Origin: Eledone cirrhosa
Taxonomy: Eukaryota
DNA: 64,000 nt
Direction: 5' to 3'
Assembly (NCBI GenBank): GCA_964016885.1
Contig: OZ024747.1
Coordinates: 33,418,001 to 33,482,000 of the forward strand
Shown: positions 3,001 to 57,468 of the stretch, piece after piece
Numbering within the stretch: position 1 is the first letter of the stretch
How the letters are laid out: each line of letters opens with the position of its first letter
Notes under the pieces: generated by a model
Told to the model about the DNA's origin: nothing
The model's input: only the letters and a program-made list of their open reading frames with translations
The model's database searches: none
Made by a program: the position numbers and the translations under genes

Positions 3001-6000
3001 AACAACGTTAACAACAACCATAACAGAAATAACACTCACAACGGTAACAACAATACATGTAACAACCATAACAGAAATAACACTTGTAACGTTAACAACA
3101 ATACATGTAACAACCATAACAGAAATAACACTAACAACGTTAACAACAATACATGTAACAACAATAACAGAAATAACACTAGTAACGTAAACAACAATAC
3201 ATTTAACAACCATAACAGAAATAACACTAACTACGTTAACAACAATACATGTAACGACCATAACAGAAATAACACTAACAAGGTTAACAAAAATATATGT
3301 AACAACCATAACAGAAATAACACTAACAACGTTAACAACAATACATGTAACAACCATAACAGAAATAACTCTAACAAAGTTAACAACAATACATGTAACA
3401 ACCATAACCGAAATAACACTAAAAACGTTAACAACAACCATAACAGAAATAACACTCACAACGGTAACAACAATACATGTAACAACCATAACAGAAATAA
3501 CACTAACTACGTTAACAACAATACATGTAACGACCATAACAGAAATAACACTAACAACGTTAACAACAATATATGTAACAACCATAACAGAAATAACACT
3601 AACAACGTTAACAACAATACATGTAACAACCATAACAGAATAACACTAGCAACGTTAACAACAATACAAGTAACAACCATAACAGAAATAACACTAGCAA
3701 CGTTAACAACAATACATGTAACAACCATAACAGAAATAACACTAGTAACATTAGCAACAATACATGTAACAACCTTAATAAAAATAACACTAGCAACGTT
3801 AACAACAATACATGTAACAACCATAACAGAAATAACACTAGCAACGTTAACAACAATACATGTAACAACCATAACAGAAATAACATGGGCAACGTTAACA
3901 ACAATACATGTAACAACCATAACAGAAATAACACTAGTAACGTTAACAACAATACATGTAACAACGATAACAGAATTAACACTAGTAACGTTAGCATCAG
4001 TACATGTCACGACCATAACAGAAATAACACTAACAACGTTAACAACAATACATGTAACAACCATAACAGAAATAATACTAACACCGTTAACAACAACTAT
4101 AACAGAACTAACACTCACAACGGTAACACCAACACGTGTAACAACCATAACAGAAATAACACTAGTAACGTTAACAACAATACATGTAACAACTATAACA
4201 GAAATAACACTAACAACGTTAACAACAATACATGTAACAACAATAACAGAAATAACACTAGTAACGTTAACAACAATAAATGTAACAACCATAACAGAAA
4301 TAACACGAGTAACGTTAACAACAATACATGTAACAACTATAACAGAAATAACACTAGTAACGTTAGCAACGATACATGTCACAACCATAACAGAAATAAC
4401 ACGAGTAACGTTAACAACAATACATGTAACAACCATAACAGAAATAACATTAGCAACGTTAACAACAATACATGTAACAACCATAACATAAATAACACTA
4501 ACAACGTTAACAACAATACATGTAACAACCATAACAGAAATATCACTAACAACGTTAACAACAATACATGTAACAACTATAACAGAAATAACACTAACAA
4601 CGATAACAACAATACATGTAACAACCATAACAGAAATAACACTAACAACGTTAACAACAATACATGCAACAACCATAACAGAAATAACATTACCTACGTT
4701 AACAACAATACATGTAACAACCATAACAGAAATAACACTAACAACGTTAACAACAATACATGTAACAACCATAACAGAAATAACACTAACGACGTTAACA
4801 ACAATACATATAACAACCATAACAGAAATAACACTAACAACGTTAACAACAACTTTAACAGAAATAACACTTACAACGGTAACAACAATACATGTAACAA
4901 CAATAACAGAAATAACACTAGTAACGTTAACAACAATACGTGTAACAACCATAACAGAAATAACACTAACAACGTTAACAACAATACATGTAACAACCAT
5001 AACAGAAATAACACTAACAACGTTAACAACAATACATGTAACAACCATAACAGAAATAACACTAACAACGTTAACAACAATACATGTAACAACCATAACA
5101 GAAATAACATAACAACGTTAACAACAACACATGTAACAACCATAACAGAAATAACACTAACAACGTTAACAACAATACATGTAACAGCCATAACAGAAAT
5201 AACACTAACAACGTTAACAACAATACATGTAACAACCATAACAGAAATAACACTAGTAACGTTAACAACAACACATGTAACAACAATAACAGAAATAACA
5301 CTAGTAACGTTAACAACAATACATGTAACAACCATAACAGAAATAACACTAACGACGTTAACAACAATACATATAACAACCATAACAGAAATAACACTAA
5401 CAACGTTAACAACAACCATAACAGAAATAACACTAACAACGTTAACAACAACCATAACAGAAATAACACTAACAACGTTAACAACAATACATGTAACAAA
5501 CATAACAGAAATAACACTCACAACGTTAAGAACAATACATGTAAAACCATAACAGAAATAACACTAGCAACGTTAACAACAATACATGTAACAACCATAA
5601 CATAAATAACACTAACAACGTTAACAACAATACATGTAATAACCATAACAGAGATAACACTAGTGACGTTAACAACAATATATGTAACAACTATAAGAGA
5701 AATAACACTAACAACGTTAACAACAATACATGTAACAACCATAACAGAAATAACACTAGTAACGTTAAAAACAATACATTTAACAACCATAACAGAAATA
5801 ACACTAGCAACGTTAACAACAATACATGTAACAACCATAACAGAAATAACGCTAGCAACGTTAACAACAATACATGTAACAACCATAACAGAAATAACAC
5901 TAGCAACGTTAACTACAATACATGTAACAACTATAACAGAAATAACACTAGTAACGTTAGCAACGATACATGTCACAACCATAACAGAAATAACACGAGT

Positions 6001-46112: not shown

Positions 46113-46117
<5 letters not shown>

Positions 46118-46227
46118 AAAATGTTCAAGACCCCGATGGCAGTGCTTGAGTCGTTTCAACGGCTAGTCCAGAAATAGCTGTTGAAACGGCTCGACCACTG
46201 CCGTCGGGGTCTTGAACATTTTCCTAT
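46113..46227. repeat. Near-perfect inverted repeat (53-bp arms, 9-nt loop) between (TA)n tracts
   Basis: ATAGGAAAATGTTCAAGACCCCG...AACGGCTA / TAGCTGTT...CGGGGTCTTGAACATTTTCCTAT; 5 mismatches. Confidence 0.95.
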
Positions 46228-53366: not shown

Positions 53367-53449
<83 letters not shown>

Positions 53450-53460
53450 CATATATATAC

Positions 53461-53491
<31 letters not shown>

Positions 53492-53532
53492 ATATATATA
53501 CATATATATAATATATATATATATACATATAT
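51675..53532. repeat. Cluster of compound (CA)n/(TA)n/(TG)n/(TATG)n microsatellites
   Basis: Tracts at ~51675-51842, 52170-52331, 52818-52970 and 53355-53532. Confidence 0.95.
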
Positions 53533-53543
53533 AATTCGTAGGA

Positions 53544-53761
53544 AAATGGAGAAACTCGGCATAAGGAATCTTTTAAAATAGTAAAATAGAAACCAGCGGC
53601 TAGTTGTGAGTTGACTCAAGTCAACTCACAACTAGCCGGTGGTTTCTATTTTACTATTTTAAAAGATTCCTTATGCCGAGTTTTTCCATTTAGGATATAA
53701 ATCAGCGGCTTGATGTGAGTTGACTCAAGTCAACTCACATCAAGCCGCTGATTTATATCCT
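53544..53761. repeat. Two abutting hairpin-forming palindromes (73-bp and 34-bp arms) with identical apex
   Basis: 53544-53691 (2 mismatches) and 53692-53761 (perfect). Both are centred on TGTGAGTTGACT-CA-AGTCAACTCACA. Confidence 0.97.
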
Positions 53762-53848
53762 TCAAAGTAATGTTTTACCCAACGCCGCTTCATGAGAAAA
53801 ATGGCGTGAATATTACAATACAACACAATAGGAGGGAACATGATAATA

Positions 53849-53894
53849 CTACCACTGATGATGTTGCAGATGTGCAACGAAAGAACTTTGTTAG
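53849..53894 (+). ncRNA. Probable minimal type I hammerhead motif (degenerate)
   Basis: CTACCA CTGATGA-T GTTGCA-GATG-TGCAAC GAAA GAAC TT^TGTTAG. Perfect 6-bp stem II, one mismatch in stem I. Confidence 0.55.
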
Positions 53895-54132
53895 ACTATA
53901 TATATATATATATTTATATCTGTATTTTTAACCGTTGGTCAGTCAAATATAAACGTTGATTGCCAAATATATTAACTATGGAGATATAAAAGATGCAGAA
54001 GTGAAAACCAACCAAAGAGTGAGTGTGTTCTGTTATTATTTCTGGCAATAATATTACAACAATATGACCCTCCCCAAGTATAACAATATTTGTTTCGACA
54101 CACGATTTCATATCAAAAACCTTGCAAAACAA

Positions 54133-54310
<178 letters not shown>

Positions 54311-57298: not shown

Positions 57299-57468
57299 AC
57301 GCACTCCAATGCTTCTGCCGAAAATTATACAAACTGGAATCTTATAGAATTCCAGTAATAATCAGGAGCTGGACCGGCAATTGCTCTGTATAATCAGCTC
57401 CTGATTATTACTGGAATCCTATAAGAACCCAGTTTCTATAAATTTTCGGCAGAAGCATGGGCGTGCAT

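What the first reader, a model, noticed from the sequence alone, without database searches (positions are those of the whole stretch)
53534..53897. Twin hairpins with a shared apex and arm-mirrored substitutions, followed by a hammerhead: a non-coding module between (TA)n tracts
Seen: two palindromes abut with no gap (73-bp arms with 2 mismatches; 34-bp arms perfect), both centred on TGTGAGTTGACT-CA-AGTCAACTCACA. They are homologous (ATAGAAACCAGCGGCTAGTTGTGAG vs ATATAAATCAGCGGCTTGATGTGAG), yet each of the four differences appears in both arms of its own hairpin. Plain duplication plus drift would break symmetry. A probable hammerhead lies ~90 bp downstream and there is no ORF. Inference: arms are re-templated from each other (fold-back priming or a covalently closed hairpin intermediate with a fixed turnaround sequence, as at protelomerase or parvoviral ends), or the structure is under selection. 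This could be an undescribed non-autonomous, ribozyme-bearing mobile element.
Basis: partly seen in the sequence, partly recalled or inferred. Interest (0 to 1): 0.72.

Follow-up and report, generated by a model that had tools for sequence, protein, structure and literature searches.

The report
Twin hairpins from one transposon scar
The two hairpins are real, but they are pieces of a common old repeat that were likely made perfect by a one-off DNA copying slip at a single back-to-back insertion, and the ribozyme motif beside them belongs to a different, very common Penelope-like jumping gene, so this is not a new mobile element.

Summary
The hairpins are real (73-bp arms with 2 mismatches; 34-bp arms, perfect), and read contigs cross apex 1 and both joints. 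They do not form one element.

The hammerhead lies in the 3' stub (53797-54134) of an abundant Penelope-like family A, which carries RT and GIY-YIG in longer copies.

The hairpin arms are fragments of an unrelated non-coding repeat, family B, which often inserts head to head in (TA)n. Those joints vary; only one other locus shares this apex, a TCGA site with a decayed CpG.

The region reads a, rc(a), rc(b), b. The outer arms a and b match at 25 of 29 positions, like other old B pairs (86%). The inner arms copy them (105 of 107), private alleles and a 42-nt deletion included, and no source copy was found elsewhere.

Best reading: one old imperfect palindrome was corrected in both directions by template switching, which duplicated its apex. 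Re-templating holds; a fixed protelomerase-like turnaround and a new ribozyme element do not. This scan already noted head-to-head Penelope stubs elsewhere in this genome, but no twin. Interest is low.

The parts
53370..53533 (.). (TA)n tract at the left end, the likely insertion target of family B
   Evidence: family B copies commonly start at (TA)n
53534..53616 (+). Arm a: old family-B fragment (ruler positions 51-174, positions 105-146 deleted), starting at the usual tail-less end of the family
53617..53618 (+). Apex 1 (CA); the family majority here is the CG of a TCGA 4-mer, so this is likely a decayed CpG at the original head-to-head joint
   Evidence: column counts at ruler 174-177
53619..53691 (-). 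rc(a): inverted copy of arm a (71 of 73 identical), inferred product of template switching
53692..53725 (+). rc(b): inverted copy of arm b (34 of 34 identical); it begins with the same AGGA that precedes the paired part of arm a
53726..53727 (+). Apex 2 (CA), the same as apex 1 and in the same orientation
53728..53791 (-). Arm b: second old family-B fragment (ruler 174 down to 111), the head-to-head partner of a; it lacks the deletion
53797..54089 (+). 5'-truncated 3' end (pseudo-LTR) of Penelope-like family A, 10 of 305 positions off the family majority; includes the internal TA run after 53897
   Evidence: coding sequence upstream in other copies:
53846..53899 (+). Type I hammerhead motif of the Penelope kind: core CTGATGA, one extra T, 6-bp helix II with G10.1-C11.1, GAAA, 2-bp helix III with an AA loop, predicted cut after CUU
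   Evidence: features compared with PMC4209133 passages
54090..54134 (+). Optional 3' tail of family A (12 of 28 copies end at 54088-54089; 8 of 28 run on to 54124-54135)
54133..54308 (.). (TA)n tract at the right end, the likely target of family A

Best explanation
The locus is a composite of fragments of repeat family B followed by the hammerhead-bearing 3' stub of Penelope-like family A, and the twin hairpins likely arose when one old imperfect head-to-head B insertion (a|b) was re-copied locally into a, rc(a), rc(b), b. Step 1 (inferred from 33 similar pairs): family B inserted into (TA)n as two truncated copies joined head to head, here at a self-complementary TCGA; the arms then drifted about 14% apart, arm a lost 42 nt and the central CG became CA. 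Step 2 (shown as anatomy): a family-A copy landed at the right end with its 3' end in (TA)n and its 5' end on arm b. Step 3 (inferred): during replication or repair the new strand passed the apex, switched template within the 12 identical bases beside it and copied a backwards for 73 nt. It then jumped to b, copied it backwards for 34 nt and re-joined the normal template at the same 12 bases. This needs at least three switches; a 109-bp tandem duplication followed by inversion of the piece between the two apexes gives the same product. Both hairpins are perfect because each inner arm is a young copy, and they share an apex because there was only one. No function is implied.
For: Family A: the 40 best other matches cover only query 257-364 at 94-98% (1434 candidates); the GIY-YIG C-terminus lies collinear upstream in 8 of 28 loci; RT motifs are present in L070; optional tail. 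Family B: 994 candidates at 82-87%; 16 ends with tail and 21 without; 33 other head-to-head pairs with varied joints. Local re-copying: inner arms match outer arms at 105 of 107, against 3057 of 3553 in the 33 other pairs (P = 3e-5 at 0.865); six H1 alleles with family frequency 0.07 or less are in both arms; the deletion is in 0 of 62 other copies; the best other locus is 89% for H1 (5 of 5 candidates scored) and 92% for arm b (40 of 393 scored). One ancestor: a against b is 25 of 29, the family norm; the inner arms are strict subsets of the outer arms; both apexes carry the same minority state (A in 9 of 66 copies) in the same orientation; 12 identical bases flank the apex; H2 ends at a 4-nt inverted microhomology present at 29 of 3618 possible endpoint pairs (noticed post hoc). 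Template switching that perfects inverted repeats and inverts spacers is published (PMC5453318 passages; PMC8604942 abstract).
Against: The ancestral a|b allele was not seen: no contig showed a 109-nt skip and the RAD reads did not cover the locus. The product is not a single event of the four-point model (my derivation), so it needs several switches or two events. No second twin turned up among 74 hairpins in about 343 kb, so the mechanism rests on one case. One independent locus (L072) has the same centre and also a CA/TG apex, so a shared apex can arise independently. Some other B right-hand copies are also cut short at their outer end, which weakens the subset argument. One other pair (L078) is 39 of 39 identical, though with no shared rare allele. 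Genome searches score only the best 40 candidates, so a near-identical source copy is unlikely but not excluded.
Confidence: 0.68

Rival explanations
1. Two separate old head-to-head B insertions, both truncated at the preferred TCGA site, lie side by side, and each was later homogenised arm-to-arm by gene conversion or hairpin repair.
For: L072 shows that the same centre can arise independently. 7 of 50 B ends fall at ruler 170-183. Near-symmetric pairs carry more shared rare alleles near the joint (9 in 206 nt, against 9 in 543 nt for pairs with loops over 60).
Against: It needs two symmetric joints at the same nucleotide with the same CA state, no (TA)n or B end between them, and complete conversion of both. 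Other near-symmetric pairs are only 89% identical in the inner 30 nt and 80-81% beyond, and part of that inner identity was imposed by my search patterns.
Confidence: 0.13
2. The reverse transcriptase of family A built the whole unit in one insertion, by jumping onto transcripts of aged B copies and folding back (or priming from both cut ends), so the hairpins are retrotransposition products.
For: Both outer ends are element 3' ends facing (TA)n. The ages overlap: arm difference is 2 of 107 (95% interval 0.2-6.6%) and the A copy is 3.3% off its majority. Palindromes at Penelope inverted junctions are published and were ascribed to self-priming (PMC3846280 passages).
Against: No donor copy with the alleles of a or b was found. 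Two different aged templates would both have to stop at the same base. A and B share no sequence.
Confidence: 0.12
3. One reading: a non-autonomous ribozyme-bearing element with a fixed hairpin turnaround, as at protelomerase or parvoviral ends.
For: The two apexes are identical, and a third locus has the same centre.
Against: The unit is single-copy (read depth about 10 against over 1e5 for the A part). The joints of family B vary. The hammerhead belongs to family A. There is no protelomerase match in the genome.
Confidence: 0.03
4. Assembly or library artefact (fold-back chimera).
For: Perfect palindromes are a known artefact class (recalled). No single contig spans the whole stretch, and apex 2 is not shown bridged. 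The three runs are one sample and may be the assembly's source.
Against: Three runs each give exact contigs across apex 1 and both joints at steady depth 8-13. The two arm mismatches of H1 are not expected of a fresh chimera.
Confidence: 0.04

Closest known systems
Endonuclease-bearing Penelope-like elements with C-terminal GIY-YIG (Neptune/Nematis type), PMC8557442 and PMC3846280
   Same: Family A has RT followed by a CX4CxxC linker and a GIY-YIG domain, a hammerhead in the 3' repeat, an optional tail, 5' truncation and (TA)n targets. Family B shows the tail, the (TA)n targets, partial tandems and head-to-head pairs.
   Different: Family B has no ORF and no canonical hammerhead that I could find. 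The twin hairpin is made of aged B sequence with private alleles, not of a fresh inverted pseudo-LTR.
Quasi-palindrome correction by polymerase template switching (four-point model PMC5453318; PMC8604942)
   Same: An imperfect inverted repeat becomes perfect, clustered differences are mirrored, and the switch points lie in short homologies.
   Different: Both directions of correction are kept in series, with a net 109-bp gain. That needs at least three switches or two events; the published model covers two switches.
Non-LTR retrozymes (10.64898/2026.07.22.740005, first fifth of the text read)
   Same: A type I hammerhead in a non-coding Penelope-derived stretch.
   Different: There is one hammerhead, no tandem of hammerhead units, and the stub is collinear with a coding element in other copies.
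Protelomerase target sites and parvoviral hairpin termini (recalled)
   Same: Long hairpins with a short turnaround.
   Different: The structure is internal and single-copy, built from a dispersed repeat with variable joints, and there is no protelomerase match in the genome.

Membership tests
EN+ Penelope-like element (family A, 53797-54134) | Reverse transcriptase ORF collinear with the terminal repeat | tested here: met
   RT motifs in broken ORF pieces upstream in L070/L025 and L015. They were recognised by eye; Pfam gave no hit at its curated cut-off for 6 of 6 pieces.
EN+ Penelope-like element (family A) | C-terminal GIY-YIG endonuclease | tested here: met
   P0001. Atlas look-alikes score 0.96-0.97, with GIY-YIG on 13-18% of members (a lead). 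Collinear in 8 of 28 loci.
EN+ Penelope-like element (family A) | Hammerhead in the pseudo-LTR with a base between positions 9 and 10.1, G10.1-C11.1 and a short helix III | tested here: met
   against PMC4209133 passages. Loop 3 is not strictly palindromic in the majority.
EN+ Penelope-like element (family A) | Optional 3' tail and inverted 5'-truncated partner copies | tested here: met
   Tail in 8 of 28 copies, absent in 12; inverted partner at L003/L012.
Neptune/Nematis clades (family A) | CX2-5CxxC linker before the endonuclease | tested here: met
   CTNKKCVIC in P0001; definition from PMC8557442 passages.
Neptune/Nematis clades (family A) | Placement in the RT tree | not tested
   No reference proteins were fetched and no tree was built.
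Hammerhead ribozyme | Self-cleavage | not testable with these tools
   Predicted weak as a monomer: 2-bp helix III, CUU triplet, and a C-C mismatch in distal helix I of this copy.
Penelope-like element (family B) | Tail, (TA)n targets, head-to-head and tandem copies | tested here: met
Penelope-like element (family B) | RT and GIY-YIG coding partner | tested here: inconclusive
   No coding-length ORF in the 611-nt unit (longest stop-free stretch 138 aa on the doubled unit) and no collinear hit with family-A proteins in the loci held. The genome was not searched for a partner.
Penelope-like element (family B) | Hammerhead in the repeat | tested here: not met
   A simple core pattern found none on either strand of one natural unit; no Rfam hammerhead in L081 or L061. 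Naiad elements also lack it.
Non-autonomous mobile element (the whole 53534-53897 module) | Several dispersed copies with shared ends | tested here: not met
Protelomerase or parvoviral hairpin end | Invariant turnaround across copies and a cognate enzyme | tested here: not met
   Joints vary over 33 pairs; PF16684 has no match in the genome. Parvoviral NS1 was not searched.
Template-switch mutation | Ancestral allele from which the switches give the derived allele | tested here: inconclusive
   The ancestor is inferred from family B. It was not seen in contigs or RAD reads.

The most novel reading that the evidence does not exclude
The many imperfect head-to-head Penelope-type scars in this genome are a standing substrate for a recurring double-correction event that keeps both corrected versions of a palindrome in series. 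It would turn aged repeats into new perfect hairpins and give a large natural test set for multi-step template switching in an animal germ line.
Probability: 0.2. Interest if true: 0.45.

Novelty: new member of a known kind. Interest (0 to 1): 0.2.

Why it matters
As it stands this is a neat single mutation in repeat DNA. It shows that mirrored substitutions and a shared apex can arise without selection and without a special element, a point already made for template switching in general (PMC5453318). It also warns against joining a hairpin and a nearby hammerhead into one module in genomes rich in Penelope-like stubs. It would matter more if such twins recur genome-wide, because the known family consensus lets the ancestral state and the switch points be read without an outgroup.

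Tried and rejected
Rfam at gathering score: 0 hits in the window. At E <= 10, 38 sub-threshold matches, mostly hairpin-shaped miRNA models, and no hammerhead; rejected as shape matches.

Pfam on 6 family-A ORF pieces: no relevant family.

RNA: no RNA holder was listed, so expression was not tested.

Ancestral allele: three RAD runs and one contig run did not cover the hairpins; the few reads laid there are other B and A copies. Run X4 did not cover them either.

Symmetric hairpin capping of a staggered break at the apex: considered by reasoning and rejected, because it gives CA in one hairpin and TG in the other, whereas both read CA.

A single four-point event of type 3-1-4-2: does not give a, rc(a), rc(b), b (my derivation).

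General arm-to-arm conversion gradient in B pairs: weak and confounded by my search patterns.

L088 is not family B and was dropped; that search's control also gave 5 matches. Loci that contain the finding itself were left out, and pairs with under 25 nt of overlap were left out.

Literature: five searches ran; no listing described such twins, but only listings and passages of six papers were seen. Earlier scan notes: none for twin hairpins or for arm b. Supplements were not opened; the family lists of PMC8557442 may already name family A or B. Dfam and Repbase were not available.

Full report
Observation. The window lies in a 3.0-Gb animal genome (G000:C7:33418001-33482000). The two palindromes are as described: H1 53544-53691 (73-bp arms, 2 mismatches) and H2 53692-53761 (34 perfect pairs), both centred on GACT-CA-AGTC. 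Block shuffles give no such hairpins (0 in 20 shuffles against 4 real in 38001-64000). Contigs from three runs of one sample cross apex 1, the H1/H2 joint and the joint to the downstream sequence with no differences at depth 8-13. Apex 2 is not shown bridged, and the sample may be the assembly's source. Hairpins as such are common here: 74 distinct ones in about 343 kb of repeat-rich loci, 28 of them with arms of at least 34 bp at 97% or more, and none abutting another.

The hammerhead belongs to family A. Searching the genome with the whole module gave 1434 candidates. The 40 best other matches cover only the last 100 nt or so, at 94-98%. Summed contig depth over most of this part exceeds 1e5, against about 10 over H1. 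In 8 of the 28 loci the C-terminus of an endonuclease lies directly upstream on the same strand. It has a CX4CxxC linker and GIY-YIG-like motifs (Atlas lead, GIY-YIG on 13-18% of members), and RT motifs lie further upstream in L070. Pfam did not call these pieces. The ribozyme motif has the traits listed for Penelope hammerheads in PMC4209133 (passages): a base between positions 9 and 10.1, G10.1-C11.1, a 6-bp helix II and a 2-bp helix III. Activity was not tested. Family A is therefore a Neptune/Nematis-type Penelope-like element by domain order (PMC8557442 passages), and the window holds a 5'-truncated stub 10 of 305 positions off the majority.

The hairpin arms belong to family B. The H1 arm matched four other loci weakly. 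Their flanks revealed a repeat with 994 candidates at 82-87%. It has a 611-nt unit, an optional tail of about 50 nt (16 ends with, 21 without) and (TA)n targets. I found no ORF of coding length, no hammerhead core and no similarity to A. It behaves like a Penelope-type repeat, but its membership is not shown. On the family ruler the window reads 51-175 (105-146 deleted), 174-61, 141-175, 174-111.

No fixed turnaround. The exact 24-nt apex occurs twice in the genome, both times here. One other locus has the same centre (L072), and three other fold-backs within the same 40 nt turn elsewhere. The 33 other head-to-head B pairs have varied joints. In 30 loci chosen on a different part of B, 3 of 50 ends lie at 175-177, 7 at 170-183 and 9 at 274-285: preferred zones, not one site. 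The family majority at the apex is TCGA, and L100 is joined through two TCGA sites. The apex is therefore likely a microhomology joint whose CpG has decayed. The protelomerase family PF16684 has no match in the genome.

The mirrored differences are real and unusual. Arms of the 33 other B pairs match at 3057 of 3553 positions (86%); H1 and H2 match at 105 of 107 (P = 3e-5). One other pair is 39 of 39 but shares no rare allele. H1 arms share nine non-majority alleles, six at frequency 0.07 or less, and a deletion found in 0 of 62 other copies. The best other loci are 89% and 92% (40 of 393 candidates scored). The arms were therefore copied from each other after the sequence had aged, most simply at this locus.

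One ancestor explains both hairpins (inference). Write the outer arms as a and b; the region is a, rc(a), rc(b), b. Arms a and b match at 25 of 29, as an ordinary old pair would, and share 12 identical bases beside the apex. The inner arms hold nothing that the outer arms lack, apart from two substitutions. Removing 109 bp leaves a normal a|b pair that starts at the usual B end in (TA)n. The start of rc(b) coincides with a 4-nt inverted microhomology (29 of 3618 endpoint pairs; post hoc). H2 alone is what classical quasi-palindrome correction would give, and H1 is the correction in the other direction. Such switches are published for human and yeast (PMC5453318 passages; PMC8604942 abstract). 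Keeping both needs at least three switches, or a duplication plus an inversion. Whether the family-A insertion triggered it cannot be told: the ages overlap. The ancestral allele was not observed, and no second twin was found.

Prior work. Inverted truncated partners, tails and palindromic junctions of Penelope-like elements are published (PMC3846280 passages; PMC8557442 passages and section 11). Earlier notes of this scan describe head-to-head Penelope stubs at other places in this genome. I had reached the Penelope reading before that call. Their claim that joints pile up at preferred RNA 5' ends fits my end counts, but I did not test it with RNA. No note described twins.

Verdict. This is a composite of known-type repeats plus a likely one-off template-switch mutation. 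Interest 0.2.

Noticed in passing
window 1-37895: A 38-kb tandem array of a 48-bp unit (about 800 copies, 89% matches). It has stop-free stretches of up to about 1000 codons reading Asn-rich on + and up to about 1200 codons reading Val-rich on -. It may be a satellite whose unit simply lacks stops; coding was not tested.
   Followed up: partly
window 42338 (+) and 39325 (-): Two near-identical hammerhead core motifs of another family face in opposite directions about 3 kb apart, possibly the inverted ends of one Penelope-like insertion.
   Followed up: no
window 46113-46227 and 57325-57441: Two further imperfect hairpins; the first sits between TA tracts and resembles a hairpin family seen in several fetched loci.
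   Followed up: no
L072 1341-1605 and L077 1384-1640: Symmetric family-B pairs whose inner 23-33 bp are nearly identical while the outer arms are about 70-80% alike, a hint of local arm homogenisation; partly imposed by the search patterns.
   Followed up: partly
L109 and L100: Family-B joints that fall on short self-complementary words: a GAGT/ACTC mini-hairpin in L109 and TCGA to TCGA in L100.
   Followed up: partly
family B unit (L081, L084, L106): The unit holds an ATG followed by a splice-donor-like AAG/GTGAGT and a pyrimidine-rich stretch on the presumed sense strand, like the 5' intron of Penelope elements. 5' ends also cluster at ruler 247-258 and 274-285.
   Followed up: no
L085 and L083, beyond the family-B copies: By-eye motifs of a further Penelope/Poseidon-type ORF lie next to B copies; not translated or tested.
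   Followed up: no
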